A stretch of 59,008 bases of DNA, counting the filler. It is 5 parts of 5 records of this genome, joined end to end, with 100 filler letters (N's around TTAATTAATTAA, not from the genome) between each part and the next. Parts side by side here need not be neighbours in the genome. Positions count along the whole stretch, not along the records: positions 50,958 to 59,008 come from DRR723986_19975; 4 more parts are not named here. The stretch is one strand, 5' to 3'. The position numbers and the translations under genes are program-made. The notes beneath the pieces were generated by a model, which searched no databases, was not told where the DNA came from, and saw only the letters and a list, made by a program, of their open reading frames with translations. Each line of letters begins with the position of its first letter. The first letter of the stretch is position 1. Below, one piece after another: positions 19,616 through 59,008 of the stretch.

Positions 19616-19715
19616 NNNNNNNNNNNNNNNNNNNNNNNNNNNNNNNNNNNNNNNNNNNNTTAATTAATTAANNNNNNNNNNNNNNNNNNNNNNNNNNNNN
19701 NNNNNNNNNNNNNNN
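19616..19715. other. Artificial contig-joining spacer (N44-TTAATTAATTAA-N44)
   Basis: 100-nt N run with a central six-frame-stop 12-mer at 19660-19671; sequence shifts from AT-rich to GC-rich across it. Confidence 0.99.
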
Positions 19716-32879: not shown

Positions 32880-32979
32880 NNNNNNNNNNNNNNNNNNNNN
32901 NNNNNNNNNNNNNNNNNNNNNNNTTAATTAATTAANNNNNNNNNNNNNNNNNNNNNNNNNNNNNNNNNNNNNNNNNNNN
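32880..32979. other. Artificial contig-joining spacer
   Basis: Same N/TTAATTAATTAA/N structure; truncates ftsK. Confidence 0.99.
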
Positions 32980-37396: not shown

Positions 37397-39907
37397 ATGA
37401 GTTTCATTCAACGACTGTTTGCGGTGTCTGCCTTGGCACTTTTTGCGTGTTTTGCGAGCACTTTTGCACAGATGGCCAACGTGCAGATTATTCATAACTC
37501 GTCTGACCCGGCAGCTGCAATTGTTGACATCTATATTAATGACAACAAAAGCCTGGATGATTTCGCCTATCGTTCAGCGTCACCGTTCGTTCCCATTCCC
37601 GCAGGATTTGAGATTATCGCCAAGATCGCAGCATCGGACAGCGAAAATGCGGACGACAAAATCATTGCAACCATCAGTCTTGGTGCACTCGAAGATGGCC
37701 AAAACTACGTCATTGTTGCCAACGGCGTCCTTGGTGAGAACTTCAACAATGGCGGTGATGAGTCACGCAATATTGATTTTAACCTCTATACTGTCGGCAA
37801 CGCGCGCCAGCTGTCTAGCGGCGGTGCAGGTTTTGTTGACGTCGCTGTATTTCACGGCGTTACCGACGCACCTGCAGTAGATATTTTCATCGACATAGCT
37901 GGCGAACCCCTGTTTAGAAATGTGGAATACGGTCAATTTTCAGAATACGTTTCGCTGCCGGCGAGTGATGAATACATCTTCACTGTCACAGAGGCCGGCA
38001 ATCCCGAGGCAGTTCTGGATCGTTTCCTGGCACCTCTTAAAACAGCAGACCGTGCGGCTGCAGTTATCTGTGCTACTGGTTTTGCAACTCCTGGTGACGA
38101 GCCGGGTATGCCATCAGCTGAAGACTACGCTTTTGGCCTGCTTGTGCCATTCCCCTTTGGTGGACAGGTTTTGTTGCCAAATGATATTGCACGCGTACAA
38201 ATTGTGCACAATTCGTCCATGGAAGCGGCCGACAAAGTTGACATCTATGTTAATGGCTTGAAGCCAGAAATTCTTGACGATCTGGAGTATCGCTCAGCAA
38301 CTCGTTTTATTGACGTTCCAGCCGGCATTGACGTTACGGTTGTTATAGCACAATCCACAAGTACGGCCGTTGATCAGGATGTCCTCGCAACAGTTGAACT
38401 CGGTGAATTAGTTTCAGGCCAAAGTTATGTAGCGGTTGCCAATGGCATTATTGGTACTGAAGGATTCAACAACCCAGATCCAGACAATCGCTCAATCATC
38501 CTTGACCTCTATCTACTTCCGGGGCAGGAAACAAATGATGTCGAAGACGAAGTTGCTGCGAATTTCTTCCATGGTGTTACAGATGCACCAGCTATTGATG
38601 TCTATGGTGAAGAGGTTGATGAAGCCATTTTCTCCAATCTGGATTATGCCGAACAGACTGGCTACTTGACGTTTGATAACTTTGATACCGCAATTGAAGT
38701 CACTGAGGCTGATAACCCTGGGAATGTTCTTGGCGTGTTTAATCTGCCGTTTGCAGATTTCGGCGGACAAGGTGTTACAATTATTAGCTCTGGATTCCAG
38801 ACGCCTGGAGACGAAGAAATTACTGACAATGGCACCTACGATTTTAAGTTGTTGCTTATTGAGCCTTCTGGTTTTGTAGATATTCTGGACGCGGAACTTC
38901 CTGAGCCAACAGCTCAAGTGCAGGTAATCCATAACTCTTCTCTTCCAGCAGCAGCGACAGTTGATATATACATTAATGGCGAGAAGTCTGCGATTCTGGA
39001 CGATTTTGCCTATCGCACAGCAACGCCATTCCTGGAACTACCGGCCGAAGTCGAGCTTACCATCGTTATCGCAGCTGCGAACAGCACAGGTGTTGACGAT
39101 CAGGTATTGGACACTTTCGACGGGCAACTGTCGGCGGACAATGCCTACGTCTTGATTGCCAATGGCACTCCCGGCGAGGGCTGGAACAATGGCGGTGACG
39201 CTAACCGCAACATTGATCTTGAACTCTTTACCTTGGGCGGCCGCACAGAGGCCATGTCAAATTCAGACCTGGACATCATGGTTTTCCACGGTGTAACTGA
39301 TGCTCCGGCCGTCGACATCTATACTGACTTTTCGGCCGCATCACCGACTATTGGTGGTTTAGATTACGGAATTGCAACGGACTACATTACAGTTCCAGCA
39401 GCTCCTTTGAACCTCTTCCTCACAGCTGCAGGCAGCAAAGAAACATATGTTGGTGGTTATCAGTTTTTCCTGACAAATCTAGCTGGCGAGTCGGCAGTTG
39501 TTTTGGCAACGGGCTTCCTGAGCCCCGAAGACGAGCCAGGTCCACCGCCTGCTGGTTATGAGTTTGGTCTGATCGCTGTATTGGCAGATGGAACGATTCT
39601 GACTCCTTCCGTCGTGTCGAGCGTTAGCGAAGAAGCGCGTGAGATCGAATCCGCCAGTGTTAAGATCACACCAAACCCCGTCAGCGAACGTGCTGAGCTG
39701 AGTTTTGTCATGAGTGAAACTGCTGAAGTCCGCGTTTTTCTGACTGATGCACGTGGTGCTACCGTTACCGACTTCAATGCCGGCATCTTGCCAGTTGGTC
39801 AACATAACATGACTCTGCCGATTCAAAATCTGGCGAGCGGTGCGTACAACGTCATAATTATGACTGCGACCGGTGCGCAGCAAACGCAGCTGAACCTTGT
39901 GCGTTGA
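37397..39907 (+). CDS. DUF4397-repeat protein with T9SS type-A CTD (paralog 1)
   Basis: Signal peptide; three VQ.[IV]HN / FHGVTDAPA.D module pairs; CTD TPNPVSERAELSF...LASGAY...LNLVR. Confidence 0.85.
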   Translation: MSFIQRLFAVSALALFACFASTFAQMANVQIIHNSSDPAAAIVDIYINDNKSLDDFAYRSASPFVPIPAGFEIIAKIAASDSENADDKIIATISLGALEDGQNYVIVANGVLGENFNNGGDESRNIDFNLYTVGNARQLSSGGAGFVDVAVFHGVTDAPAVDIFIDIAGEPLFRNVEYGQFSEYVSLPASDEYIFTVTEAGNPEAVLDRFLAPLKTADRAAAVICATGFATPGDEPGMPSAEDYAFGLLVPFPFGGQVLLPNDIARVQIVHNSSMEAADKVDIYVNGLKPEILDDLEYRSATRFIDVPAGIDVTVVIAQSTSTAVDQDVLATVELGELVSGQSYVAVANGIIGTEGFNNPDPDNRSIILDLYLLPGQETNDVEDEVAANFFHGVTDAPAIDVYGEEVDEAIFSNLDYAEQTGYLTFDNFDTAIEVTEADNPGNVLGVFNLPFADFGGQGVTIISSGFQTPGDEEITDNGTYDFKLLLIEPSGFVDILDAELPEPTAQVQVIHNSSLPAAATVDIYINGEKSAILDDFAYRTATPFLELPAEVELTIVIAAANSTGVDDQVLDTFDGQLSADNAYVLIANGTPGEGWNNGGDANRNIDLELFTLGGRTEAMSNSDLDIMVFHGVTDAPAVDIYTDFSAASPTIGGLDYGIATDYITVPAAPLNLFLTAAGSKETYVGGYQFFLTNLAGESAVVLATGFLSPEDEPGPPPAGYEFGLIAVLADGTILTPSVVSSVSEEAREIESASVKITPNPVSERAELSFVMSETAEVRVFLTDARGATVTDFNAGILPVGQHNMTLPIQNLASGAYNVIIMTATGAQQTQLNLVR

Positions 39908-40035: not shown

Positions 40036-40678
40036 AACCTCGCTCTACACGCGCCGCACTTTCACCTTGATATTGATCGCCAGGCCCTTTGCGCCGGGCC
40101 CACTTCGGGCCTGAGACCGGCTTAATGGCTTGCTTTATAATTTTGTTAGTACATGTGCTGCAAATCTTCACCCGCCGATCCGCTCCAGCCTTCAGCAGTT
40201 TCGTCATGAAAGTTTGCCGTTCCACGCCGCAAGGTTTGGCAGGGCTCACTGAGAGCCCTAGCTTTGTCATCGGAAGGACGTACAAACCATCAGGGCACGT
40301 TGGGATGTACGAATTTGCAGACAAGGCAACAATTTTGTGAAACCACATTGTGTTGCAGTGGTTATTACGATGGGCACTTAAGCACTGACTCGCAAACCGA
40401 TAACCGGGCACCCATCTTTGAATAGTTAAGCGTTATTACGGTCGACGCGGCCAGGTCGCCTATGACTTGTTTAAGTCGCCGTAAGCCGTCCCGCACACGC
40501 GCTCAGTTGTGTTCTAGTCTTCGGACTACAACTTAAACAACAATCCAACATTTGGATAAAAGAGTGTGGCAGACAGTTGAGATAGTGGGGGCACTATCTT
40601 CACCCGAGTCTGGGACAAATGAATCTGGAACTATCTGAGATTTTAAATTTTTTATCATCTTCTCCGAAGGGTGTTGTT

Positions 40679-43192
40679 ATGACATTCATGCAACGACTAG
40701 TCGCGGCTTGCACCGTGGCATTAATCGCGCTCAGTGCGCAAGCGTTTTCGCAAGCAAATGTTCAGGTTATTCACAACGCAGCCGACCCTGCGGCCGCAGT
40801 GGTTGATATCTATGTTAACGACAGCAAACCGGAAGTTTTTGACAACTTTGCATTCCGCAGTGCTTCGCCGTTTCTGCCCCTGCCTGCCGGGGTTGACATT
40901 ATCGTAAAAATTGCAGGCCCCGAAAGTGCAGATGCAAGTGATCAGATAATTGCAACCATTAACCTGGGGCAGTTAACTGACGGTGAAAATTACGTGGTTG
41001 TAGCCAATGGCGTATTGGGTGAAAACTTTAACAATGGCGGTGATGAAAATCGCAGCATTGCGTTTAACTTATTCACATCCGGCAATGCTCGGCAACTGTC
41101 AAGCGGTGGAATGGGATTTGTTGACGTCGCCGTCTTCCACGGTGTGACCGATGCACCGGCTGTAGACGTCTACGCCGACATCACCGGTGACCCGCTGGTG
41201 AGTAATCTGGACTATGGACAATTCTCCGACTACATCACTTTGCCTGCCAGCGACGAATATGTTTTGACCGTCACGGTAGCCGGTAACAAAGACGCTGTTG
41301 TAGACCGCTTCCTGGCTCCGTTGGCAACTGCCAATCGTGCTGCGGCCGTCGTATGCGCAACTGGTTTTGCCACTCCTGGCGATGAGCCGGGCATGCCGTC
41401 CGCTGAGGACTATTCCTTTGGTTTAATGGTTCCATTTCCATTTGGTGGTCAGGTATTGCTGCCAAATGACATTGCGCGTGTACAGATTATACACAATGCT
41501 TCATTGCCCGCAGCAGCTGTGGTTGATCTTTATGTTAATGGTTTGAAGTCTGACGTACTTGATGACGTGGCATATCGCACTGCGACGCGCTTTCTTGACG
41601 TTCCTGCCGGTGTTGACGTAACGGTTACCGTTGCAGCTTCTACGAGTACGGATGTTAATGACGGCGTAATTGCTACCGTTGAGCTTGGTCAATTGGAAAC
41701 CGGCAACAGTTACGTAGCGATTGCCAACGGTATTGCGGGTGAAGGATTTAACAATCCCGATCCAGATAACCGCATGATTGGATTTAACATCTATGCACTG
41801 GCGGGTCAGGAAAGTACCGACGTAGAAAACGAAGTAGCTGTGAATGTCTTCCATGGTGCAACCGATGCACCGGCTGTGGATGTCTATGCCGACATCAATG
41901 CTGAGCCGCTGATTCCAAATCTGGACTACGGCAACGCTACCGGTTATGTAAACCTGCCGGCTGTTGAATCTGCTCTGACGGTTACTGCAGCAGGCAGCAA
42001 AGAAGTTGTTGTGGGAACATTTACTGCTCCACTGCAAATCCTGGGCGGCCAGGCAATCAATGTAGTTGCCTCCGGTTTCCTTTCTCCGCAAGATGAAGCT
42101 GTAGAAGATGATGGTACCTACGACTTTGAACTGATTGCAGTTCTGCCTGATGGCACTGTGGTAGTTCTGGAGCAAGACGCTCAAGCAGGTACGGCACAGG
42201 TACAGGTGATTCACAACTCTTCCCTGCCCGCGGCGGCAACTGTAGACATTTATGTTAACGGTGCCAAACCCGAACTGCTCAACGACTTCGCATATCGCGA
42301 TGCAACGCCATATCTGGACCTGCCTGCCGACGTTGAAATTGAAGTCGTCATCGCTGGTCCGGGCAGTACCGACGTATCTGATCAGGTGCTTGGTACATTT
42401 AACCTGGGCACCTTGACTGCAGACGCAGCCTATGTCCTGATTGCAAACGGTATCGCCGGCGAAGGCTGGAATAACGGCGGCGGTATGGAACGCAACATCG
42501 GGCTTAACCTATATCCGCTGGGCGGACGCACAGAAGCTTTGGCGGGCACGGATGTTGACCTGGCAATCTTCCACGGCGTTACCGATGCACCGGCTGTTGA
42601 CATCTACACAGATTTCTCTGCCGATATGCCAACCGTTCCAAATCTTGACTACGGCATGGCCACAGACTACATTTCGGTTCCGGCCGCTCCACTTAACACC
42701 TTTATTACCGCAGCAGGCAGTAAAGAGACCTTTGTTGGTGGTTACCGCTTTAACCTGACAGGTGCCGGCGGCGCCACGGCAGTTGTACTGGCTACAGGAT
42801 TCCTGAGCCCGGCAGACGAGCCAGGTCCTCCTCCGGCCGGTTATGAGTTTGGCCTGATTGCCGTCCTGAATGACGGAACGGTTGTAACTCCAGATGTAGT
42901 TTCGAGCGTTAGCGAAGAAGCGCGTGAAATCGCATCGGCCAGCGTGAATATCATGCCAAATCCAGTCAGCGATCGTGCCGAACTCAGTTTTGTGATGAGC
43001 GAAACTGCGGAAGTACGGATTCTGATGACGGATGCACGCGGCGCGATCGTTACTGAAATCAATTCCGGATTGCTGCCGCTTGGCCGGCACAATCTGAACC
43101 TGCCGATCCAAAGTTTGGCGAACGGTGCATATAGCGTCGTGATCATGACCGAAACCGGTGCGCAGCAGATTCAACTCAACGTTGTCCGTTAA
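40679..43192 (+). CDS. DUF4397-repeat protein with T9SS type-A CTD (paralog 2); probable start at 40679
   Basis: Collinear with 37397-39907; MTFMQRL aligns with MSFIQRL, and the 5' leaders are homologous. Confidence 0.85.
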   Translation: MTFMQRLVAACTVALIALSAQAFSQANVQVIHNAADPAAAVVDIYVNDSKPEVFDNFAFRSASPFLPLPAGVDIIVKIAGPESADASDQIIATINLGQLTDGENYVVVANGVLGENFNNGGDENRSIAFNLFTSGNARQLSSGGMGFVDVAVFHGVTDAPAVDVYADITGDPLVSNLDYGQFSDYITLPASDEYVLTVTVAGNKDAVVDRFLAPLATANRAAAVVCATGFATPGDEPGMPSAEDYSFGLMVPFPFGGQVLLPNDIARVQIIHNASLPAAAVVDLYVNGLKSDVLDDVAYRTATRFLDVPAGVDVTVTVAASTSTDVNDGVIATVELGQLETGNSYVAIANGIAGEGFNNPDPDNRMIGFNIYALAGQESTDVENEVAVNVFHGATDAPAVDVYADINAEPLIPNLDYGNATGYVNLPAVESALTVTAAGSKEVVVGTFTAPLQILGGQAINVVASGFLSPQDEAVEDDGTYDFELIAVLPDGTVVVLEQDAQAGTAQVQVIHNSSLPAAATVDIYVNGAKPELLNDFAYRDATPYLDLPADVEIEVVIAGPGSTDVSDQVLGTFNLGTLTADAAYVLIANGIAGEGWNNGGGMERNIGLNLYPLGGRTEALAGTDVDLAIFHGVTDAPAVDIYTDFSADMPTVPNLDYGMATDYISVPAAPLNTFITAAGSKETFVGGYRFNLTGAGGATAVVLATGFLSPADEPGPPPAGYEFGLIAVLNDGTVVTPDVVSSVSEEAREIASASVNIMPNPVSDRAELSFVMSETAEVRILMTDARGAIVTEINSGLLPLGRHNLNLPIQSLANGAYSVVIMTETGAQQIQLNVVR

Positions 43193-43789: not shown

Positions 43790-43889
43790 NNNNNNNNNNN
43801 NNNNNNNNNNNNNNNNNNNNNNNNNNNNNNNNNTTAATTAATTAANNNNNNNNNNNNNNNNNNNNNNNNNNNNNNNNNNNNNNNNNNNN
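43790..43889. other. Artificial contig-joining spacer
   Basis: Same structure; truncates lgt. Confidence 0.99.
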
Positions 43890-50857: not shown

Positions 50858-50957
50858 NNNNNNNNNNNNNNNNNNNNNNNNNNNNNNNNNNNNNNNNNNN
50901 NTTAATTAATTAANNNNNNNNNNNNNNNNNNNNNNNNNNNNNNNNNNNNNNNNNNNN
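50858..50957. other. Artificial contig-joining spacer
   Basis: Same structure; truncates the KAS III gene. Confidence 0.99.
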
Positions 50958-51346
50958 ATACGCATGTATTCGGCGGAACAGAGTGGGAGAGGGCAAAGCC
51001 CGACCCACGGCCCTGAACGGGGCTGTCAATCGGCCACATTTGCGAAGAAAATGTCTGCGCCAAAATCAGACGCCAATTTGCGTCGCGAGGAATGGCCTGC
51101 CTGCAGGACAGGGGAAATTGATGGCTGATTTTGGGGATGGACTAAGGTTGACCGCCACGGTCAGGGATGTTGGGCGGACCAAACAAAATGAGTGATGCCT
51201 GGATCGGGTGAGCGGGCCAACGGCCCGTTGAGACCCGATACAGTCCGTTTGTAAAAGCCGTCCCGACGGGACGACAATCATGTAATTTCGTGGTTAAGGT
51301 GTGCTGTGCAAGAAAATATCAGAATCGTGTCTTCAAGGAATAAAAC

Positions 51347-52264
51347 GTGCAATCAGAGGGCTCATTCGGTCGAACAATCCAGCTTTTCCTCGTAGACGGG
51401 AAGCCAACCGGGCTGCGAAAAGCGACGATCCATGGTTGGACAGGCTTGCTTTTCGTAAGTGGGGCTTCAGCTTTCGGCGACCTTGCCGCTCGTGAAGAGG
51501 TCGATCGAACTGGCATCTACATATTGTCGGGTCCTGATCCGGAAAAGGCCGGTGCAACCCGCGCCTATATTGGATCTGGGAACTCTGTGGCTGAGAGGAT
51601 CAAGCAAAGCGCGATCAAAAGAGATTTCTGGGAAACGGCCATCACCATAACGACAAGTGACGACGACCTATCCAAAGGGCACGCAGAGTATCTTGAGGCG
51701 CGGCTCATAGAACAAGCTGCTCAAGCAGGTCGCGTCACCTTGGACAACGGCACGCAACCGGACACAAGCAGACGACGACTGCCAGAGGCCGACGTCGCCA
51801 ATATGGAGCAATTTCTTTCAAACCTGCGCATCATCCTGCCCGTGATCGGCCTGGACATGCTCAAACCACAACCGCGCGCGGTGACACAGACAGCGAAGCC
51901 GGTCGACGAGCGGACCGAAGGAGAAGTGCAGTTCGAGATCCGCCACAAGAGCGGAGTCAAAGCGACTGCTGTCGAAGAAGACGGCGAATTTGTTGTACTG
52001 GAAGGGTCCGAGGCGCTCACTGAAACCGGCTATGTCCAACAGAGCTACGGCGGCTTGAAGGAAAAGCTCATTTCAGACGGCATTTTGGTTGCGGACGGCA
52101 ACCAAAAACTCAGATTCACGAAACCTTGGTCGTTCAATAGTCCATCGGCGGCCGCTGCTGTAGTCTTGGATCGAAACAGCAACGGACGTCTAGAATGGAA
52201 GGTCAAAGGATCGAAGCAAACCTACCATGACTGGCAGCAAGCTGAAGCTGGTACCCCCTCCTAA
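51347..52264 (+). CDS. GIY-YIG nuclease with C-terminal DUF4357 (RAMA-related) domain
   Basis: TGIYILSG...AYIGSG...YLEARLI...LDN; C-terminal FVVLEGS...FNSPSAAAAVVLDRNSNGRLEWK. Confidence 0.88.
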   Translation: MQSEGSFGRTIQLFLVDGKPTGLRKATIHGWTGLLFVSGASAFGDLAAREEVDRTGIYILSGPDPEKAGATRAYIGSGNSVAERIKQSAIKRDFWETAITITTSDDDLSKGHAEYLEARLIEQAAQAGRVTLDNGTQPDTSRRRLPEADVANMEQFLSNLRIILPVIGLDMLKPQPRAVTQTAKPVDERTEGEVQFEIRHKSGVKATAVEEDGEFVVLEGSEALTETGYVQQSYGGLKEKLISDGILVADGNQKLRFTKPWSFNSPSAAAAVVLDRNSNGRLEWKVKGSKQTYHDWQQAEAGTPS

Positions 52265-52608
52265 GTGGTGCCCCAACATCACAGAACTTTTCCATTCAGT
52301 CCTTCAAACCTCAATGATAGTTGCCGAGCCCCAATTGAGAGTAGCCACTGCTCGTTGAAACCCTAATCAGTTGATCGGAATTCATCTCTCGCACGCGAAA
52401 CTGCCGGTTCCGCAACTGGTGCGCTGCAGATGCTGGCCACAAGAGGCTGGTTCTTAAGACGCATCAAATCGAAAGCCTTGCCGCAGCGCTTCGCACCAGA
52501 CGCATCGACTGTACGACCGCGAGACAATGCAGCAGGAAGAATGGGTCTCCGTTCCGTCCGTTGCAAATTTCGTCCACATAACGCAGAGTAGCGCTAAAGA
52601 GTCACTCG

Positions 52609-53064
52609 ATGAGATCAAATGACGTAATGGTGAGAGCAAATAACGTAAGCAAAAGCCTTCGCGAGGAAATCGGCGGACGCTTGGCGAAAATCAGAGAGCA
52701 TTTCGACTTCAGCCAGTCGGAAATGGCCGAAAAGATTGGTGTTTCTTCTCGGAGCTATCAAAATTACGAGCAAGGAAAACGCGAGCTACCCAGCTCACTT
52801 CTTTTCAACTTGCAAGAATCGCTGGGCGTGAGCAGTCACTGGTTACTCACTGGACAGGATGGACCTCTCCATCGTAGCCCCGCGAAAATCGCACGTGAGG
52901 CGATGGAAGACATCGCCGTCGTTGCGCAGACGGCCGGTCTGTCACCTTCACTATCGAAAATCCCTGAGGTTCTCGAAATCGCTATCGAACAAGAAATGGC
53001 GATGAGACCTATGAAGCCTGACGAGGTTGAGCGCATTTTGAGACTGGCGAGTGACAAGAAATGA
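52609..53064 (+). CDS. XRE-family HTH regulator (controller-protein-like); start uncertain
   Basis: RLAKIRE...SQSEMAEKIGVSSRSYQNYEQGKRE...WLLTG. Confidence 0.88.
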   Translation: MRSNDVMVRANNVSKSLREEIGGRLAKIREHFDFSQSEMAEKIGVSSRSYQNYEQGKRELPSSLLFNLQESLGVSSHWLLTGQDGPLHRSPAKIAREAMEDIAVVAQTAGLSPSLSKIPEVLEIAIEQEMAMRPMKPDEVERILRLASDKK

Positions 53065-53714
53065 CCGAACAAAGCAGGCAGATTAAGAACAAAAAGCGCG
53101 TAGCGGATCACGGCGAGGTCTTCACCCACGAACGGGAAGTGCAAGCAATGCTCGACCTTGTTGAGCACGAGAGCTTTCGGATCGACTCGCGATTTCTGGA
53201 ACCAGCCTGTGGCGACGGGAACTTTTTGGTACCGGTCCTTGAGCGCAAGCTCGAAACGGTTAGACAGCGCTACGCCCGATCTCAATCAGACTTTGAACGA
53301 AACAGCCTGATCGCACTGTCCAGCGTCTATGGCGTTGATATCCTGCAAGACAACGTGGAAGCATGCCGCTCCCGTCTCTTCGGTATCTACGACACCACAT
53401 ATGCGGAGGCCTTCGGTAAAAACACGAAGGCGGATTGCCTTAATGCGGCCAGGACCATTTTGTCCAAGAACATCCTTTGGGGAGACGCCCTCTTAATGCT
53501 TCGGGCAGATGGAAGCGGTGATCCAATCGTCTTCACCGAATGGACCGCAGTCAACGGTCGGAAGATCAAACGACGAGAATACACCTTGGCAAATCTGCTC
53601 GCATATCAGCCCTTCGAGGGCGAGAGCCTATTCTCAGACTTAGGCGAACAGGCATTCATCCCTAAGCCTGTCCGCGAGTACCCCCTTGTTGATTATCTTG
53701 AGCTTGCCGAATGA
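53061..53714 (+). CDS. SAM-binding DNA-methyltransferase-like subunit lacking catalytic motif IV
   Basis: HGEVFT (X), FLEPACGDGNFL (I), YGVDI (II), NILWGDAL (III); no (N/D)PP(Y/F) in 217 aa. Confidence 0.85.
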   Translation: MTEQSRQIKNKKRVADHGEVFTHEREVQAMLDLVEHESFRIDSRFLEPACGDGNFLVPVLERKLETVRQRYARSQSDFERNSLIALSSVYGVDILQDNVEACRSRLFGIYDTTYAEAFGKNTKADCLNAARTILSKNILWGDALLMLRADGSGDPIVFTEWTAVNGRKIKRREYTLANLLAYQPFEGESLFSDLGEQAFIPKPVREYPLVDYLELAE

Positions 53715-55237
53715 CTTTTCAAATCAGCCACAATCCAGACGTGCTCACGTGTCTCGCAAATCTAAGCAACGATGAAGTTTTCACGCCGCCCGCCTTTGCG
53801 AACCGAATGCTTGACGAGTTACCTTCAGCTTTGTGGTCCAATCCTGATGCCAAGTTCCTCGACCCTTTCAGCAAAACTGGTGTCTTTCTGCGAGAAATCG
53901 CGAAGCGCCTGAACGAAGGGTTGCGGCCTGCCTTCCCAGACGATCAGGAAAGGCTCAATCACATCCTCACAAACCAAGTCTTCGGGATTGCCCTGACAGA
54001 GCTAACCGCTTTGATCAGCCGCCGGAGTCTTTACTGCTCGAAGATGGCCGATGGCAGGTATTCGATTTGTGATGTGTTCGATGAAAAGGACGGCAATATC
54101 ATCTACGAGAACCGTCAGCACACGTGGGAAGGTGGCAAGTGCAAATTTTGTGGGGCGGCTCAGTCTGTTTACGAGCGATCTGATGATTTGGAAAATTACG
54201 CTTACCTTCTGCTCCATCACGAGAAACCCGAGGAGATTTTCGACGTGAAATTTGATGTGATTATCGGCAACCCGCCCTATCAGCTTTCAGACGGCGGACA
54301 TGGCGCGAGCGCGAAGCCGATCTATCACAAGTTCGTCGAACAAGCGAAAAAGCTTCAACCCTCGTATCTCTCGATGGTTATCCCGGCGCGCTGGTATTCC
54401 GGCGGCAAGGGCCTGGACGACTTCCGCGCTGACATGCTGAAGGACCGACGAATGCGCAAGCTGGTCGACTACCCGAAGCTCTATGATGCCTTCCCAGGTG
54501 TCAAGATCAGAGGCGGCATCTGCTACTTCCTTTGGGAGAAAAACCATGACGGGATGTGCGAAGTACAAACGATGTGGGATGGGGAACCGCTGGGTGAGCC
54601 GGTAGCGCGATATCTCGATCAGTTTGATGTACTTGTGCGCAGGAACGAGGCGGTATCCGTTCTCGAAAAAATTCAGGCTTTCAGACATGAAGGGGTTGCC
54701 GAACCGACGTTCGATACGATTGTTTCCCGTTCGAAACCGTTTGGCTTCCGCACCAACTTCCATGGAAAACCTGACGCGGAAGGTCTTGATGATCCTATCA
54801 AGCTCTACGGTTCCCAAAAAATCTCATGGATTGAGCGCAACATCATTACTCAAAACGCAGACTGGATTGAGCGTTGGAAAGTGCTGATGAGCGCCGTTCA
54901 AGGCACAAGTGCGGCGGTCGAAACAAAATTTCTGAGCAACCCGATAGTATCCGGTCCCGGCGAAATATGCACTGAAACGTATGTAGTGGCCGGGCAGTTC
55001 GAAACAGAAGATGAAGCCGAGTACTGCGCTAGCTATTTGAGAACGCGGTTTGCACGCTTTTTTGTGTCACTAAGAAAGGCAGCACAACATGCTTCGCGAG
55101 ACGTCTATTCATTTGTGCCCTTGGTTCCCCTTGATCGCCACTGGACGGACCAAGAGCTCTACCAAAGGTACGAGCTTACCGATGAAGAGGTCGGGTTCAT
55201 CGAAGCTACCGTAGCTCCAATGGAGCAGCGTCGATGA
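53711..55237 (+). CDS. Eco57I-type N6-adenine DNA methyltransferase with a C-terminal target-recognition region
   Basis: DEVFTP, FLDPFSKTGVFL, DVIIGNPPY, IPARW, C-terminal LYQRYELTDEEVGFIE. Confidence 0.9.
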   Translation: MTFQISHNPDVLTCLANLSNDEVFTPPAFANRMLDELPSALWSNPDAKFLDPFSKTGVFLREIAKRLNEGLRPAFPDDQERLNHILTNQVFGIALTELTALISRRSLYCSKMADGRYSICDVFDEKDGNIIYENRQHTWEGGKCKFCGAAQSVYERSDDLENYAYLLLHHEKPEEIFDVKFDVIIGNPPYQLSDGGHGASAKPIYHKFVEQAKKLQPSYLSMVIPARWYSGGKGLDDFRADMLKDRRMRKLVDYPKLYDAFPGVKIRGGICYFLWEKNHDGMCEVQTMWDGEPLGEPVARYLDQFDVLVRRNEAVSVLEKIQAFRHEGVAEPTFDTIVSRSKPFGFRTNFHGKPDAEGLDDPIKLYGSQKISWIERNIITQNADWIERWKVLMSAVQGTSAAVETKFLSNPIVSGPGEICTETYVVAGQFETEDEAEYCASYLRTRFARFFVSLRKAAQHASRDVYSFVPLVPLDRHWTDQELYQRYELTDEEVGFIEATVAPMEQRR

Positions 55238-57726
55238 CGCAGGAGCTCTTCCCCGACAAGGTGGATCTGCAACCGAAGATCTACGCCTACGCCGACACCA
55301 ACCCGGAACTCAACGGCCTCTTGAAGGTTGGCTACACGACCCAAGAGGTAGCTGACCGGGTCGCGCAACAGTACCCCACTCTTAGGCCTGGTTCTCGACC
55401 CTATAAGATCGTTTTCGAAGAATCCGCGATGCGCAACGATGGCAGCGCCTTTAGTGACCACGATGTTCACCGAGCCCTGCGCAAGGCCGGTTTCGCCAAC
55501 CCGAAAGGCGAATGGTTCAAATGCCGCGTCAAAGATGTCGCCGCCGTTGTAGGCCAGATCGCCCGTGGCGAAGAGAAGTTCGTTGCACGAAATCTGTCGT
55601 TCGGCATGCGCCCAGAGCAAAGAGCGGCTGTTGAAAAGGCGGCTGTGTATATTTCTTCGTATCGGTCTGAGAATGATGGCGCGACACCCCATTTCCTCTG
55701 GAATGCGAAAATGCGCTTCGGTAAGACATTCGCGGCTTATCAGCTTGCACTTCGCATGGGCTGGACGAAGGTTCTCGTGTTGACTTTCAAACCAGCTGTT
55801 CAAAACGCTTGGGAAGAAGACCTCCAGTCCCATGTTGATTTCGATGGCTGGCAATTCACCTCGCGCGATGGCGTTCCGTTCGAAGAGATCGACACTAATC
55901 GTCCCTTCGTCTGCTTCGGTTCATTTCAGGACTATCTGGGAAAAAACAGCGCGGGTGGCATCAAGCCAAAGAATGAATGGGTTCATACAACCAACTGGGA
56001 TTGCGTCATTTTTGACGAATACCATTATGGGGCATGGCGCGAAAACGCCAAGGAATTGTTTGAACAGGAAAGTGCGGCGGAACGGAAGGCTCAGGTTGGA
56101 GAAGGTATCGAGTACTTTGACCAGGAAAACCTACCGATCACGACCGATGCTTACCTTTACCTGTCTGGAACACCGTTCCGCGCAATCGAGTCGGGCGAGT
56201 TTATTGAAGAGCAAATCTTCAACTGGACGTACTCGGACGAACAGAGAGCCAAGGCTGAATGGGAAGGGCCAGACAACCCCTACGCTGCACTGCCCCGCAT
56301 GGTCTTGATGACGTATAAGCTCCCCGACGAAATCTCCGCCGTGGCTGACGGTGGTGAGTTTGATGGCTTTGATTTGAATGCGTTCTTTTCAGCGGAAGGC
56401 GTTGGACCGGACGCACGCTTTAAGTATCACGATGAGATACAAAAATGGCTCGACCTTATCCGTGGCGCTCACATGCCCACAGCCACGGACAGCCTAAAAC
56501 TGGGCGCAAAGAAGCCGCCCTTACCGTTTTCGCATGGTCCCCTGCTACGAGTGCTGAATCATACGTTCTGGTTCTTGCCAACCGTTGCAGCCTGTCATGC
56601 CATGGCAAATCTCTTGGCAGAGCCTCAGAACACCTTCTATCATGACTACAAAATAGTCGTCGCAGCAGGTACAGGGGCCGGAATGGGCGTTCACGCACTC
56701 AAGCCTGTGCTCAACGCGATGGACGACCCACTTGAGAGCAAAAGCATCACTTTATCTTGTGGAAAGCTGACGACAGGGGTTTCAGTCAAACCCTGGACCG
56801 GCATCTTCATGCTTCGAAATTCTTCAAGCCCTGAAACCTACTTTCAAGCGGCGTTTCGGGTTCAGACACCGTGGGCGATCTCAAATCCCGACGGTCTGTC
56901 CCCCAACAAACAAGAGATTATCAAGAAAGAGTGCTATGTTTTTGATTTTGCACCAAATCGGGCGCTTTCGCAGATCGCAGACTACAGCTGCCGTCTGAAC
57001 GTAGGCGAAAGTAATCCCGAGAAAAAGGTAGCTGAATTTATCAATTTCCTTCCGGTACTAGCCTATGACGGAAGCGCGATGGAACGCTTAGACGCTGCCA
57101 AAATCCTAGACATTGCAATGAGCGGAACATCGGCAACCCTGTTGGCCAGACGTTGGGAGAGCGCCTTGCTTGTCAACGTTGACAACGCAACGCTTGAACG
57201 GTTGATGAAAAACCAGAAAGCGATGGACGCCTTGATGAGCATCGAGGGCTTTCGCTCTCTGAACGCGGACATCGAGACGATCATCAATAAGTCAGAAAGC
57301 ATCAAGAAGGCCAAGACCGAAGCGAATGAGCGAGAGCTCACAAAGAAAGAAAAGAAGAAGCTCTCGGAGGAGGAGAAAGAGTACAAGAGCCTCAGGAAGC
57401 AAATTCAGGAAAAGCTGATTAAGTTCGCTACGCGGATTCCGGTGTTTATGTATCTGACAGACTATCGCGAACGCAGCCTGAAAGATGTGATCACCCAACT
57501 TGAACCTGGATTGTTTAAGAAGGTGACGGGTCTTGATGTCGCTGATTTTGAATTGCTGGTCAGCTTGGATGTGTTCAACAGCAGCTTAATGAATGACGCA
57601 GTCTACAAGTTCAAACGCTACGAGGATTCAAGTCTGAACTATGCTGGCTTCACCAAACACGATGCAACGGACCTAGGGCTTTTTGACACCGTCGTCGATA
57701 GAGATGAAAGCTCTCGGGTGATGTAA
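55234..57726 (+). CDS. T5orf172/GIY-YIG-like nuclease fused to an SF2 (ResIII-like) helicase; putative restriction subunit
   Basis: IYAY...LLKVGYT...DHDVH...GEWF; Walker A AKMRFGKT, Walker B FDEYH, motif III LSGTPF, LTTGV, YFQAAFRVQTP. Confidence 0.88.
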   Translation: MTQELFPDKVDLQPKIYAYADTNPELNGLLKVGYTTQEVADRVAQQYPTLRPGSRPYKIVFEESAMRNDGSAFSDHDVHRALRKAGFANPKGEWFKCRVKDVAAVVGQIARGEEKFVARNLSFGMRPEQRAAVEKAAVYISSYRSENDGATPHFLWNAKMRFGKTFAAYQLALRMGWTKVLVLTFKPAVQNAWEEDLQSHVDFDGWQFTSRDGVPFEEIDTNRPFVCFGSFQDYLGKNSAGGIKPKNEWVHTTNWDCVIFDEYHYGAWRENAKELFEQESAAERKAQVGEGIEYFDQENLPITTDAYLYLSGTPFRAIESGEFIEEQIFNWTYSDEQRAKAEWEGPDNPYAALPRMVLMTYKLPDEISAVADGGEFDGFDLNAFFSAEGVGPDARFKYHDEIQKWLDLIRGAHMPTATDSLKLGAKKPPLPFSHGPLLRVLNHTFWFLPTVAACHAMANLLAEPQNTFYHDYKIVVAAGTGAGMGVHALKPVLNAMDDPLESKSITLSCGKLTTGVSVKPWTGIFMLRNSSSPETYFQAAFRVQTPWAISNPDGLSPNKQEIIKKECYVFDFAPNRALSQIADYSCRLNVGESNPEKKVAEFINFLPVLAYDGSAMERLDAAKILDIAMSGTSATLLARRWESALLVNVDNATLERLMKNQKAMDALMSIEGFRSLNADIETIINKSESIKKAKTEANERELTKKEKKKLSEEEKEYKSLRKQIQEKLIKFATRIPVFMYLTDYRERSLKDVITQLEPGLFKKVTGLDVADFELLVSLDVFNSSLMNDAVYKFKRYEDSSLNYAGFTKHDATDLGLFDTVVDRDESSRVM

Positions 57727-57885
57727 TGGGCAAAGCTATCTACCCATGGACAAACGCCAATGGTTTTAGGGGCTGTCTACCACCGGCGTGTCCCTCTTGT
57801 TCACAACTATCCTGTGATCCTATCTGGAGTTCGACCTCAGAACAGAGGCAGCCCAATTTCGCATGCTTTGGGCCGTTCGCCGACT

Positions 57886-58416
57886 TCACGCAACTGCAGC
57901 GAACTGGTCTTCAGCCCAACGGCGAATCTTGTCCTCTCTCGGCATGCCTCGATATTGGCGCGGAGTATTCCAAGCTTGGGTGGATGGGTGCCCCGTTCGG
58001 TAGGCACTTATGTCAGGCATATGCGCTTCAAACACTTCGTGGGCGAACTGTGCCGCCTTTCCCAGATAAACGATGATTTCGGGCTGAACGCGTTGCAAAC
58101 GGGCAATGAGCCTAGCTCGGTTCTCGGGTGCCAGAACGTGCTGTTTGCGTGGCTGCGTGCTCCCATCATATCCCTCGCGCTCGGGATATCTTGGCAGTGA
58201 ATGTGCATTGACTAAGCTGTAGGCATCCAGTTGCGGCGATGGAAGAACCCGCGGATACAGGACCTGCAAGCGTTGCAGCATGATTTCAAGATTTTGTCCG
58301 GACTGCCCTGCGAAAGGCCGTCCGTCCCGTTCTTCTTCACGTCCAGGACAGGCCCCGACCAACAGTACTCTTGGATGTACATCGACAAATCTGAAATCAG
58401 CAGCGTTCCTACACAT
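57886..58416 (-). CDS. Uracil-DNA glycosylase superfamily protein
   Basis: VLLVGACPGREE...GRPFAGQSG, LVNA, PEIIVYLGKAA, GHPS. Confidence 0.8.
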   Translation of the reverse strand: MCRNAADFRFVDVHPRVLLVGACPGREEERDGRPFAGQSGQNLEIMLQRLQVLYPRVLPSPQLDAYSLVNAHSLPRYPEREGYDGSTQPRKQHVLAPENRARLIARLQRVQPEIIVYLGKAAQFAHEVFEAHMPDISAYRTGHPSTQAWNTPRQYRGMPREDKIRRWAEDQFAAVA

Positions 58417-58583
58417 CTCGAAAACCTAGCCGACCATGATCGGAAACCCAAGGGCACCGGCGACGGGGTGCGAATACATCCTTACAGTCCAGCCGATAGT
58501 GAAGTGAATACCGCAGAAATCAATCTGCCATCACCACGAAATTTCACCTGAAAGCCGAACTACAGCTTAGTTCTATCGCCTCA

Positions 58584-58615
58584 GAAGAAAGCCAGGGCGG
58601 GCAACCCGCCCTGGC
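58584..58615 (-). terminator. Intrinsic terminator of the 65-aa gene
   Basis: 11-bp perfect stem GCCAGGGCGGG/CCCGCCCTGGC followed on the minus strand by TTTCTTC. Confidence 0.8.
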
Positions 58616-58622
58616 ACTGAGG

Positions 58623-58820
58623 TCATTCGGTGACCGGTTCTTCATCGCGGCGCGGGAAGGCGACCATTTCGACATCGGGGAACATGCTGTGTTTGACGTT
58701 GATCGAGGTGATGTTGCCGCTGTCGTCGGTGTTGACGAAGAGGACGCCGCAGCGATCCCAGAAGTTCTTGCCGTCTTTTTCGCCGGATTTGACGTTCAGT
58801 TTCAGAGTTTGAGTAGCCAT
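58623..58820 (-). CDS. Small beta-rich protein of the kind found on alphaproteobacterial mobile elements
   Basis: 65 aa; KDGKNFWDRCGVLF motif; acidic tail; GAGG Shine-Dalgarno and its own terminator. Confidence 0.7.
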   Translation of the reverse strand: MATQTLKLNVKSGEKDGKNFWDRCGVLFVNTDDSGNITSINVKHSMFPDVEMVAFPRRDEEPVTE

Positions 58821-59008
58821 TTTTTGATCCTCACTTTGAGTGTTTCGATGAACATGACCAAAGCTGGCACCAAGGGGCTGTCAGCGAGAAACTTGGCTCG
58901 CGAGGAATGCGCTGGCGCAGGGGAATTTTCTTGTTGAAGCGGGGCTTGCACCGCGTCTGCTACGGCTGCCCGCTTATGTTCAGCAATCAGAAACACGGCG
59001 TTGAGGGA

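What the first reader, a model, noticed from the sequence alone, without database searches (positions are those of the whole stretch)
52609..57726. Four-gene coupled operon: XRE, two MTase-like subunits and a nuclease-helicase; candidate non-canonical restriction/defence system
Seen: all three junctions are ATGA stop/start overlaps (53061-53064, 53711-53714, 55234-55237), which implies one translationally coupled unit. Established: type I systems need HsdS with PD-(D/E)xK HsdR. Type III systems pair a beta-class Mod with a Res carrying a C-terminal PD-(D/E)xK nuclease. Type ISP enzymes fuse all activities in one chain. Here there is no HsdS, the MTase has gamma-class order (motif I before NPPY), there is an extra short MTase-like subunit, and the helicase has an N-terminal T5orf172/GIY-YIG-like nuclease. 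Inference: an ATP-dependent RM-like anti-phage or anti-plasmid system outside the textbook types, probably autoregulated by the XRE protein. Homologous gene sets probably exist in databases under generic names; I know of no biochemical characterisation.
Basis: partly seen in the sequence, partly recalled or inferred. Interest (0 to 1): 0.78.

Follow-up and report, generated by a model that had tools for sequence, protein, structure and literature searches.

The report
DrdVI-type restriction-modification operon with regulator
This is a real four-gene operon, but its three core genes belong to an already named and widespread restriction-modification family (DrdVI type), so it is an ordinary new member with one unsolved detail: why the methylase comes in two pieces.

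Summary
Four same-strand ORFs (52609-57726) are joined by three ATGA stop/start overlaps. They encode an XRE-type HTH protein, a short MTase-like protein (M1), an Eco57I-type gamma-class N6-adenine MTase with a C-terminal TRD (M2), and a T5orf172/GIY-YIG plus SF2-ATPase protein (R).

The system is not outside known kinds. M1, M2 and R match the DrdVI system of Deinococcus wulumuqiensis plasmid pDrdVI over their full lengths, at 45%, 49% and 57% identity. REBASE and NEB file DrdVI as Type IIG, with an m6A motif of GCAGCC and M1+M2 called a "split methylase". MaeIV (GCACY) is a second characterised relative.

The M1-M2-R order is kept in 59 of 63 genome loci that had enough upstream sequence. 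At least 596 relatives of R turned up in a scan of species-representative genomes.

The XRE gene is a local addition. None of the 88 related loci held a homologue, and only 1 of 50 ORFs upstream of M1 was comparable.

I found no printed account of cleavage, ATP dependence or phage restriction for this family. By domain logic it most resembles a split Type ISP enzyme with a GIY-YIG nuclease.

The window is five contigs joined by artificial linkers. The operon sits on an 8-kb piece (50958-59008).

Novelty: new member of a known kind.

The parts
52609..53064 (+). XRE-family HTH protein (151 aa). A local, non-conserved first gene of the operon and a candidate controller.
   Evidence: HTH_3 2.8e-11 and HTH_19 4e-11. 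PADLOC Control_protein 1.4e-4 and RmrA N-terminal HTH 2.2e-7. Its stop overlaps the M1 start. No homologue in 88 related loci by blastp at 1e-5.
52610..52648 (+). 18-nt direct repeat in two copies, 21 bp apart, at the very start of the XRE ORF. Either a candidate operator or a 7-codon tandem duplication.
   Evidence: the repeat finder family D1, 16 of 18 bases identical. Function not tested.
53061..53714 (+). M1: short MTase-like subunit with motifs X, I, II and III and no NPPY. Homologue of M1.DrdVI.
   Evidence: 45% identity to the pDrdVI 212-aa protein over residues 8-217, E 2e-57. Motif I FLEPACGxGNFL (bases 53193-53228) is invariant in 51 of 51 sequences, and the motif II position is acidic in 51 of 51.
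53711..55237 (+). M2: gamma-class N6-adenine MTase with a paralogous N'-half, a Cys/His insert, NPPY (54269-54280) and a variable C-terminal TRD (about 54578-55120). Homologue of M2.DrdVI.
   Evidence: 49% identity full-length to the pDrdVI 539-aa protein. Eco57I Pfam 1.4e-32. NPPYQ in 58 of 58 sequences. AF2 model pLDDT 86.6. Foldseek best matches are CamA, PglX/BrxX, TaqI, LlaBIII, MmeI and BpuSI.
55234..57726 (+). R: GIY-YIG/T5orf172 nuclease (about 55282-55560), SF2 ATPase/translocase (about 55603-56973; Walker A GKT 55720-55728, DEYH 56014-56025) and a conserved helical C-terminal region (56974-57726). Homologue of the DrdVI endonuclease-translocase.
   Evidence: 57% identity full-length to the pDrdVI 851-aa protein. 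T5orf172 1.7e-10. Nuclease residues Y17, K31, G33, R42 and E93, plus GKT, DEYH, SGTP and QAAFR, are invariant in 51 of 51 sequences.
51347..52264 (+). Neighbouring gene, not part of the operon: a DUF4357 protein (I read a GIY-YIG-like motif in it by eye) that matches the PADLOC defence candidate PDC-S14.
   Evidence: PDC-S14 5e-116. DUF4357 1.6e-15. No homologue in the related loci.
50858..50957 (.). Artificial contig-joining linker (N44-TTAATTAATTAA-N44). It marks the left end of the 8-kb contig that carries the operon.

Best explanation
This is a member of the DrdVI family of restriction-modification systems, with an XRE regulator gene added in front. REBASE labels the family 'Type IIG' with a split methylase.

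Shown by homology: M1 and M2 together correspond to the M1/M2 pairs of DrdVI and MaeIV. Each of those pairs was cloned together and matched to an m6A motif: GCAGCC for DrdVI by expression in E. coli, and GCACY for MaeIV by SMRT sequencing of the expressing clone. M2 carries the catalytic NPPY and the only TRD, so it reads the site and methylates one adenine. R corresponds to the DrdVI endonuclease-translocase.

Inferred: on an unmethylated site the M2(+M1) module recruits or licenses R. The SF2 motor of R uses ATP to move along double-stranded DNA, and its N-terminal GIY-YIG domain cuts away from the site. GCAGCC has an adenine on one strand only, so the family probably protects by one-strand methylation. 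Like Type ISP and Type III enzymes, it would then need two suitably oriented sites (collision or co-operation) to cut.

Inferred: M1 supplies a canonical SAM-binding half-domain that M2's own divergent N'-half no longer provides.

Inferred: XRE binds near its own start and tunes operon expression, as controller proteins do in other RM systems.
For: Full-length BLASTP matches to the three pDrdVI proteins at 45%, 49% and 57%. The published motif and naming of DrdVI and MaeIV (PMC6430315 whole text; PMC4996451 and PMC10113651 passages). PADLOC RM models hit all three proteins.

The M1-M2-R order on one strand is seen in 6 of 8 plasmid neighbourhoods inspected. One more is M1 plus an R-M2 fusion, and one is interrupted by a transposon. 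It is also seen in 59 of 63 genome loci with at least 2400 bp upstream of R. The four exceptions are two contig-end cuts, one divergent M1 found by tblastn, and one decayed locus.

All catalytic motifs are intact and invariant across relatives. In Firmicutes plasmids R and M2 are fused in the order nuclease-ATPase-MTase-TRD, with M1 still separate. That is the Type ISP domain order.

The M2 fold matches single-chain gamma MTase-TRD enzymes, including LlaBIII (4xqk_B, E 5.5e-10).

For the role of M1: its motif I is canonical in 51 of 51 sequences and its motif II position is acidic in 51 of 51. M2 instead has K55 (58 of 58) and A94 (51 of 58) at the matching positions. Single-chain relatives such as P0011 and P0059 (a cluster of 148 members) join an M1-type N-half (56% identity to M1 residues 7-173) directly to the M2 C-half and lack the N'-half.
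Against: No cleavage, ATPase or phage-restriction data for any family member were found in print, so steps after methylation rest on analogy.

R has no sequence-detectable relative among solved structures, either by phmmer or by a family profile. Its AF2 model is weak (pLDDT 64.7, pTM 0.44). Its Foldseek matches have TM-scores of about 0.2 and show only a generic Snf2-like SF2 motor, with SauUSI at rank 10 and LlaBIII at rank 30.

The AF2 model of M2 alone packs its own N'-half onto the C-half as a complete Rossmann fold. That leaves no obvious place for M1 and argues against simple complementation.

The recognition site of this particular M2 is unknown. Its TRD is variable, and its closest M2 relatives are only 62-64% identical.

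XRE is absent from relatives, so nothing supports its regulatory role beyond position and the repeat at 52610-52648.
Confidence: 0.85

Rival explanations
1. It is a genuinely unclassified, non-canonical defence system outside all RM types.
For: It fits none of the textbook definitions of Type I, III, ISP or classical IIG (see the membership rows). Restriction biochemistry is unpublished as far as my searches reach.
Against: The three core genes match a named REBASE system full-length. [quoted passage not shown] DrdVI'. PADLOC already holds models for it. Blow et al. [quoted passage not shown]
Confidence: 0.05
2. It is a methylation-based exclusion system that acts without cutting DNA (BREX-like), with R serving as a motor or remodeller only.
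For: The M2 model's second and third best fold matches are PglX/BrxX of BREX (8c45_A and 9ewz_C, E 2.2e-15). M1 has weak hits to PglX and MAD2 models.
Against: No other BREX or MADS genes lie on the 8-kb contig. The GIY-YIG-type residues of R are invariant in 51 of 51 relatives, which argues for a working nuclease. The BREX and MADS scores are far below the family cut-offs (19-20 bits against 400-720).
Confidence: 0.05
3. M1 is not part of the catalytic methylase. It is a regulatory or structural pseudo-enzyme, for example a SAM sensor or a partner that controls when R is licensed. M2 alone methylates.
For: M2 has a complete predicted Rossmann fold of its own, with NPPY and a TRD. M1 lacks NPPY in all 51 sequences. 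M1 stays a separate gene even where R and M2 are fused.
Against: Single-chain relatives use the M1-type N-half, not the N'-half. No complete locus in the sample lacked M1. The depositors cloned M1 and M2 together and call them a split methylase.
Confidence: 0.3
4. The XRE gene belongs to something else, such as an antitoxin or a regulator of the neighbouring PDC-S14 gene or of a mobile element, and only happens to abut M1.
For: XRE is absent from all 88 related loci. It has weak antitoxin-type HTH hits (Xre-like-HTH 2.3e-7, MqsA 1.1e-3). HigB/HTH_3 pairs occur as cargo inside related loci.
Against: A 4-bp ATGA overlap with M1 on the same strand. A 344-bp non-coding gap separates it from PDC-S14. 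No toxin-like ORF adjoins it. One relative, L049, independently has a 94-aa HTH_3 gene overlapping its M1 start.
Confidence: 0.15

Closest known systems
DrdVI (Deinococcus wulumuqiensis NEB 479, plasmid pDrdVI; REBASE 'Type IIG'; M1-2.DrdVI, m6A GCAGCC) and MaeIV (Methanococcus aeolicus; GCACY)
   Same: The same three proteins in the same order. Identity is 45%, 49% and 57% over full length, and the same motifs are present.
   Different: The TRD sequence differs, so the recognition site is probably different and is unknown. The window has an XRE gene fused onto the front of the operon, which pDrdVI lacks.
Type ISP enzymes LlaGI and LlaBIII
   Same: The same set of activities and, in the fused Firmicutes relatives, the same order: nuclease, SF2 ATPase, gamma N6A-MTase, TRD. 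The M2 model matches the LlaBIII MTase-TRD (4xqk_B, E 5.5e-10). Probable one-strand methylation of an asymmetric site is inferred from the DrdVI motif.
   Different: Three polypeptides instead of one. A GIY-YIG/T5orf172 nuclease instead of an Mrr-type PD-(D/E)xK nuclease (the latter per PMC3553950 abstract). An extra M1 subunit. No sequence-level match of R to LlaBIII.
'Type IIG-like' split systems such as OspHL35III (MmeI-like MTase/TRD + translocase + GIY-YIG endonuclease)
   Same: One TRD serves the whole system, and the MTase is separate from a translocase and a GIY-YIG nuclease (PMC4752239 and PMC2731913, passages).
   Different: In those systems the translocase and the nuclease are separate proteins and the MTase is MmeI-like in one piece. 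Here the nuclease and translocase are fused and the MTase is Eco57I-type with an extra M1.
Type I RM loci
   Same: A separate ATP-dependent R subunit. Relatives carry the same kind of cargo genes between the modification genes and R (YhcG/DUF1016, RhuM, Fic, AlbA_2). This matches what is reported between core genes of Type I loci (PMC9881135, passage).
   Different: No HsdS. The TRD is inside M2. The nuclease is GIY-YIG-type and N-terminal, not PD-(D/E)xK.

Membership tests
DrdVI family (REBASE Type IIG, split M1/M2 + GIY-YIG translocase-endonuclease) | Homologue of M1.DrdVI (short N-terminal-half MTase) | tested here: met
   45% identity over residues 8-217, E 2e-57
DrdVI family (REBASE Type IIG, split M1/M2 + GIY-YIG translocase-endonuclease) | Homologue of M2.DrdVI (Eco57I-type MTase with NPPY and TRD) | tested here: met
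   49% identity over residues 8-505; NPPY present
DrdVI family (REBASE Type IIG, split M1/M2 + GIY-YIG translocase-endonuclease) | Homologue of the DrdVI fused GIY-YIG endonuclease-translocase | tested here: met
   57% identity over residues 3-821; T5orf172 1.7e-10
DrdVI family (REBASE Type IIG, split M1/M2 + GIY-YIG translocase-endonuclease) | Gene order M1-M2-R on one strand | tested here: met
DrdVI family (REBASE Type IIG, split M1/M2 + GIY-YIG translocase-endonuclease) | m6A methylation of a short asymmetric motif by M1+M2 | not testable with these tools
   Needs a methylome of an expressing clone
Type ISP (LlaGI/LlaBIII) | All activities in a single polypeptide | tested here: not met
   Three separate ORFs. 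Fused R-M2 forms exist in relatives, but M1 stays separate.
Type ISP (LlaGI/LlaBIII) | Mrr-family PD-(D/E)xK nuclease domain | tested here: not met
   The N-terminal domain is T5orf172/MUG113, i.e. GIY-YIG-type
Type ISP (LlaGI/LlaBIII) | Sequence homology of the motor to LlaBIII | tested here: not met
   No PDB hit by phmmer or by family profile. There is only a low-TM fold match at rank 30.
Type ISP (LlaGI/LlaBIII) | Translocation-collision cleavage between head-to-head sites | not testable with these tools
   Biochemistry needed
Type I RM | Separate HsdS specificity subunit and an HsdR with a PD-(D/E)xK nuclease | tested here: not met
   No HsdS-like ORF on the contig. The variable C-terminal part of M2 is the TRD. 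The nuclease is GIY-YIG-type.
Type III RM | Beta-class Mod (motif IV before motif I) and a Res with a C-terminal PD-(D/E)xK nuclease | tested here: not met
   In M2 the order is motif X (residues 21-27), motif I (49-60), NPPY (187-190), then TRD. The nuclease is N-terminal. ResIII scores 21.8 bits against a cut-off of 22.5.
Classical Type IIG/IIL (MmeI, Eco57I, BpuSI) | Endonuclease and MTase in one chain, with no NTP-driven motor | tested here: not met
   The nuclease is on R, together with Walker A GKT and DEYH
Classical Type IIG/IIL (MmeI, Eco57I, BpuSI) | A single TRD serving both modification and restriction | tested here: met
   The only variable TRD-like region is in M2
C-protein-controlled RM systems | A small HTH controller conserved with the system and binding operator repeats (C-boxes) | tested here: inconclusive
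   An HTH gene is present and coupled, and an 18-nt repeat sits at its start. However, no homologue occurs in 88 related loci, and only 1 of 50 ORFs upstream of M1 is a small HTH_3.

The most novel reading that the evidence does not exclude
The DrdVI family is a natural three-lobed methyltransferase. The working SAM-binding lobe (M1) has been moved to its own small polypeptide. M2 keeps a degenerate paralogous lobe (K55 and A94 variants plus a Cys/His insert) that has been re-used, for example to dock or license the GIY-YIG translocase. M1 supply or SAM occupancy would then act as the switch between modification and ATP-driven restriction. That would be a new way of coupling cofactor sensing to a Type ISP-like motor nuclease. 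The XRE gene of this operon would be an extra layer on top.
Probability: 0.25. Interest if true: 0.55.

Novelty: new member of a known kind. Interest (0 to 1): 0.3.

Why it matters
For annotation, this operon should be called a DrdVI-type (REBASE Type IIG-like, ATP-dependent) RM system rather than a new defence system.

The family is large. R has 1055 cluster representatives at E<=1e-30, and at least 596 loci were found in a scan of one genome for each of 185,579 bacterial and archaeal species. It is spread across many phyla at 59-76% identity (best segment), and it is carried on plasmids and occasionally on phages.

Despite that, its restriction mechanism and the reason for the two-piece methylase are not in print as far as I could search. 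The family, not this particular copy, is therefore a fair target for biochemistry. It would extend the Type ISP translocation-collision model to a GIY-YIG nuclease and a multi-subunit build.

Tried and rejected
1. Complex prediction on M2+M1 returned 'no answer' (score 0.00 in both runs, and the tool did not use my alignments). This counts neither for nor against binding.

2. Sequence searches of the PDB with R, M2 and M1, and with their family profiles, gave nothing significant. The best results were 3ufb, a Type I M subunit, at E 0.0019 for the M1 profile, and PglX 8c45 at E 0.03 for the M2 profile.

3. The fold search with the R model gave only low-TM generic SF2/Snf2 matches. The model itself is weak (pLDDT 64.7), so I draw nothing beyond 'SF2 dsDNA-motor-like'.

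4. The megablast of the region against plasmids found no match.

5. The sigma-70 promoter scan found no site upstream of XRE: 3 sites in 8 kb against 4.6 expected. The organism's promoter type is unknown.

6. I first read the genes left of 50858 (tdk, a fabH fragment, proC, lgt) as chromosomal context. I rejected this once the artificial linkers were found.

7. I looked for island-flanking repeats around the operon and found nothing convincing.

8. The ESM Atlas search with M1 returned only its own family, short 'MmeI-like DNA-methyltransferase domain' proteins of about 200-230 aa. The Atlas held no structure for it.

9. Reference 29, cited for DrdVI in PMC4996451, is an unrelated genome announcement, so it gives no primary description.

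10. One paper reading failed on term syntax and was repeated with valid terms.


Full report
OBSERVATION. The four ORFs exist as described: 52609-53064 (151 aa), 53061-53714 (217 aa), 53711-55237 (508 aa) and 55234-57726 (830 aa), all on the + strand. The three junctions read ATGA at exactly the stated coordinates. Pfam gives the following:
- HTH_3 (2.8e-11) for the first ORF.
- Only a sub-threshold MmeI_Mtase N-terminal match (3e-05, profile positions 20-112 of 259) for the second.
- Eco57I PF07669 (1.4e-32) for the third.
- T5orf172 (1.7e-10), MUG113 (2.4e-06) and a just sub-threshold ResIII match (1.9e-04) for the fourth.

A fifth ORF starts on the last base of the R stop codon (57726-58076). 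It has no family match and is antisense to a UDG-family gene at 57886-58416. I treat it as spurious.

THE WINDOW IS A CONCATENATION. Four N44-TTAATTAATTAA-N44 linkers lie at 19616-19715, 32880-32979, 43790-43889 and 50858-50957. They coincide with abrupt G+C jumps. The operon therefore lies on an 8051-bp contig (50958-59008). That contig also holds a DUF4357 gene at 51347-52264, which matches the PADLOC candidate PDC-S14 at 5e-116, and the convergent UDG-family gene. Genes to the left of 50858 are not physical neighbours and say nothing about the operon's setting.

WHAT IT IS. A tblastn of R against PLSDB plasmids found 81 records, 15 of them covering at least 80% of R. One is plasmid pDrdVI of Deinococcus wulumuqiensis NEB 479. 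[quoted passage not shown] Pairwise BLASTP gives:
- M1: 45% identity (residues 8-217, E 2e-57).
- M2: 49% identity (residues 8-505).
- R: 57% identity (residues 3-821).

[quoted passage not shown] PADLOC's REBASE-derived models agree. M2 hits MTase_II PDLC03375 (7.8e-53). M1 hits MTase_II PDLC03313 (2.4e-11). Both R (profile positions 178-801) and M2 (991-1356) hit the 1359-position REase_MTase_IIG model PDLC03626, which shows that a fused form is already catalogued.

That test is met for the three core genes.

CONSERVATION. I inspected eight plasmid neighbourhoods:
- Six have M1-M2-R contiguous: Rhizobium, Deinococcus, Variovorax, Mycolicibacterium, Legionella and Sphingopyxis.
- Enterococcus has M1 plus a 1456-aa R-M2 fusion.
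- In the Corynebacterium plasmid the M1/M2 match (H32) lies about 6.8 kb upstream of R, separated by transposase and aph genes.

Further Firmicutes plasmids show a fusion of about 1460-1480 aa plus a separate M1 of 235-248 aa, in either gene order.

The 80 best loci (59-76% identity in the best segment) come from many phyla and are mostly MAGs.

In a script, 63 loci had at least 2400 bp upstream of R:
- 59 have both M1 and M2.
- 3 have M2 only.
- 1 has M1 only.

On inspection, two of the 'M2-only' loci are cut by the contig end. The third (L075) has a divergent M1 (25.7% identity, E 2e-6). The 'M1-only' locus (L068) has lost M2 and has R in two frames. No complete locus lacked M1.

R is the most conserved protein (mean column identity 67%), against 51% for M1 and 50% for M2. 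A full-library phmmer search with R gives 4006, 2660 and 1055 cluster representatives at E<=1e-3, 1e-10 and 1e-30. In the phage collection 5 of 50,697 records match and 2 cover at least 80% of R. The one I opened, PV036449.1, has ORFs of 260 aa (unannotated) and 506 aa ('DNA methyltransferase') directly upstream of the R match; I did not align them to M1 and M2.

XRE IS NOT PART OF THE CONSERVED SYSTEM. Blastp at 1e-5 found no homologue of XRE, PDC-S14 or the UDG-family protein in any of the 88 loci then held. There were 56 ORFs immediately upstream of M1. I scanned 50 with Pfam, dropping six ORFs of 479 aa or more. Results:
- One (L049, 94 aa, HTH_3) is a small same-strand HTH gene that overlaps the M1 start, as in the window.
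- L024 has a 371-aa HTH_26 protein.
- L018 has a divergent ArsR-type gene.

The window's XRE is therefore a local recruitment. Its position and the 4-bp overlap make a controller role reasonable. An 18-nt direct repeat (16 of 18 identical, 21 bp apart) lies at 52610-52648, right at its start. It could be an operator, or it could be just a seven-codon duplication. Nothing here tests this.

CARGO HOT-SPOT. In 35 of the 72 loci that have both M2 and R, the two genes overlap or abut. In 3 the gap is 46-100 bp, and in 34 it is 291-2979 bp. The script listed 53 gap ORFs. I scanned 40 of them, dropping 13, mostly small minus-strand ORFs. They include:
- YhcG/DUF1016 (4, one of them a fragment).
- RhuM (3).
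- AlbA_2 + HATPase_c_4 (3).
- HigB-like + HTH_3 pairs (4).
- Other HTH_3 proteins (3).
- Fic.
- AAA_15 + DUF4276.
- Two transposases.

The same kinds of genes are reported between the core genes of Type I RM loci (PMC9881135, passage).

ANATOMY AND LIKELY MECHANISM. M2 has motif X (residues 21-27), a motif I variant (49-60), NPPYQ (187-191, invariant in 58 of 58) and a variable C-terminal region. That is the gamma-class order. The class definition comes from established MTase nomenclature, which I recall rather than tested. Its AF2 model is confident (pLDDT 86.6, pTM 0.84). Its best fold matches are all one-chain gamma MTase-TRD modules:
- CamA (7lni_A, E 2.4e-16, TM 0.58).
- PglX/BrxX.
- TaqI.
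- BseCI.
- LlaBIII (4xqk_B, E 5.5e-10).
- MmeI.
- BpuSI.

In R, several features are invariant in 51 of 51 relatives. These are the GIY-YIG-type residues (Y17, K31, G33, R42, E93), Walker A (GKT 163-165), DEYH (261-264), SGTP (311-314) and QAAFR (538-542). The R model is weak (pLDDT 64.7), so the fold search supports only a generic Snf2-like SF2 double-stranded-DNA motor. SauUSI is at rank 10 and LlaBIII at rank 30, with TM-scores of about 0.2.

The DrdVI motif GCAGCC has an adenine on one strand only. The family therefore probably protects by one-strand methylation, as Type III, Type ISP and MmeI-type enzymes do. Those enzymes avoid self-cutting after replication by requiring two oriented sites.

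Putting this together, I infer a Type ISP-like cycle. M2(+M1) reads an asymmetric site. If the site is unmethylated, R is engaged, translocates on ATP and cuts non-specifically on collision or stalling. Only the methylation step is backed by experiments, and those were done on homologues.

THE M1 PUZZLE. A profile-profile comparison shows that M1 (residues 3-99) and the first 100 residues of M2 are paralogous (96.6% probability, 24% identity).
- M1 keeps the canonical motif I (FLEPACGxGNFL, 51 of 51) and the acidic motif II residue (D in 40, E in 11), but it has no NPPY.
- M2 has Lys in place of the first glycine (K55, 58 of 58) and Ala at the acidic position (A94, 51 of 58).
- M2 also has a conserved Cys/His insert (C109 in 57 of 58; H137, C144 and C147 in 58 of 58).

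A 'longer' homologue search with M1 found 107 proteins. Many are 470-580 aa long and carry PF07669. In the six I read, five join an M1-type N-half directly to the M2 C-half (…FDV[IV][IV]GNPPYQ…) and lack the N'-half: P0011, P0059 (a cluster of 148 members), P0020, P0005 and P0071. The sixth, P0004 (743 aa), is a plain M1-M2 fusion. P0011 is 56% identical to M1 residues 7-173, and its residues 194-513 align to M2 residues 182-505.

This favours M1 as the genuine SAM-binding lobe. Against it, the M2 model folds its own N'-half onto the C-half as a complete Rossmann domain. I found no printed test of M1 or M2 alone.

COMPARISON AND NOVELTY. The operon is a member of the DrdVI family, and all four testable features are met. 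It works most like a Type ISP enzyme split into subunits, but it is not a member of that type. It has three chains and a GIY-YIG-type rather than an Mrr-type nuclease, and R shows no sequence match to LlaBIII. It also fails the defining features of Type I (no HsdS), of Type III (gamma rather than beta order, N-terminal nuclease) and of classical Type IIG (separate nuclease, ATPase motor). It does share the single-TRD logic that led REBASE to file such systems as 'Type IIG-like' (PMC4752239, passages; PMC2731913, passage).

The literature searches found no paper describing cleavage, ATP dependence or phage defence for DrdVI-type systems. REBASE itself, the bioRxiv supplements, and the metagenome and viral contig collections could not be consulted.

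VERDICT. The operon is a new member of a known kind, an ordinary copy of a widespread but mechanistically under-studied RM family. Its one local peculiarity is the XRE gene. The one open family-level question is the role of M1. Interest: 0.3.

Noticed in passing
window 19616-19715, 32880-32979, 43790-43889, 50858-50957: Four artificial linkers (N44-TTAATTAATTAA-N44) join five separate contigs. The G+C content of the pieces is very different (about 35%, 60% and 47-62%), so the pieces may not even come from one organism. Any finding that spans these points is an artefact.
   Followed up: yes
window 51347-52264 (+): A DUF4357 protein, 344 bp upstream of the operon, matches the PADLOC defence candidate PDC-S14 at 5e-116. 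By eye I read GIY-YIG-like motifs in it. No homologue occurs next to the 88 related loci.
   Followed up: partly
window 57886-58416 (-): A uracil-DNA glycosylase superfamily gene (PF03167, 5.8e-16; partial family-4 and UdgX-like matches) converges on the end of R.
   Followed up: no
window 52610-52648: An 18-nt direct repeat with 21-bp spacing lies at the start of the XRE ORF. It also duplicates seven codons (RSNDV / RANNV). It may be an operator or a simple duplication.
   Followed up: partly
L009-L088, between M2 and R: In 34 of 72 related loci, 0.3-3 kb of cargo sits between M2 and R: YhcG/DUF1016, RhuM, AlbA_2/HATPase_c_4, Fic, HigB-HTH pairs, AAA_15+DUF4276 and transposases. This is the same assortment known from inside Type I RM loci.
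   Followed up: partly
L035 3953-5455 and 5608-6999: One Polaribacter locus carries two tandem M2 copies (500 and 463 aa) between M1 and R. They may be alternative specificities.
   Followed up: no
L002 (NZ_CP015624.1) and one search hit H32: In a Corynebacterium crudilactis plasmid the M1/M2 genes and R are separated by about 6.8 kb. The intervening DNA holds a Tn3-family transposase, a recombinase, IS1133 and aph(3'')-Ib/aph(6)-Id.
   Followed up: partly
window 37397-39907 and 40619-43192 (+): Two large paralogous DUF4397-repeat proteins (836 and 857 aa) lie on another contig of the window. The second has a weak, sub-threshold T9SS C-terminal sorting-domain match (5.5e-05, 23.8 bits against a 27-bit cut-off).
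   Followed up: no
L092 (PV036449.1, 13729-16024 and 10793-13717 of the record): A complete phage genome from the phage collection carries an R homologue (61% identity to the window's R). ORFs of 260 aa (unannotated) and 506 aa ('DNA methyltransferase') lie directly upstream, and an excisionase gene lies nearby. I did not align the two upstream ORFs to M1 and M2.
   Followed up: partly
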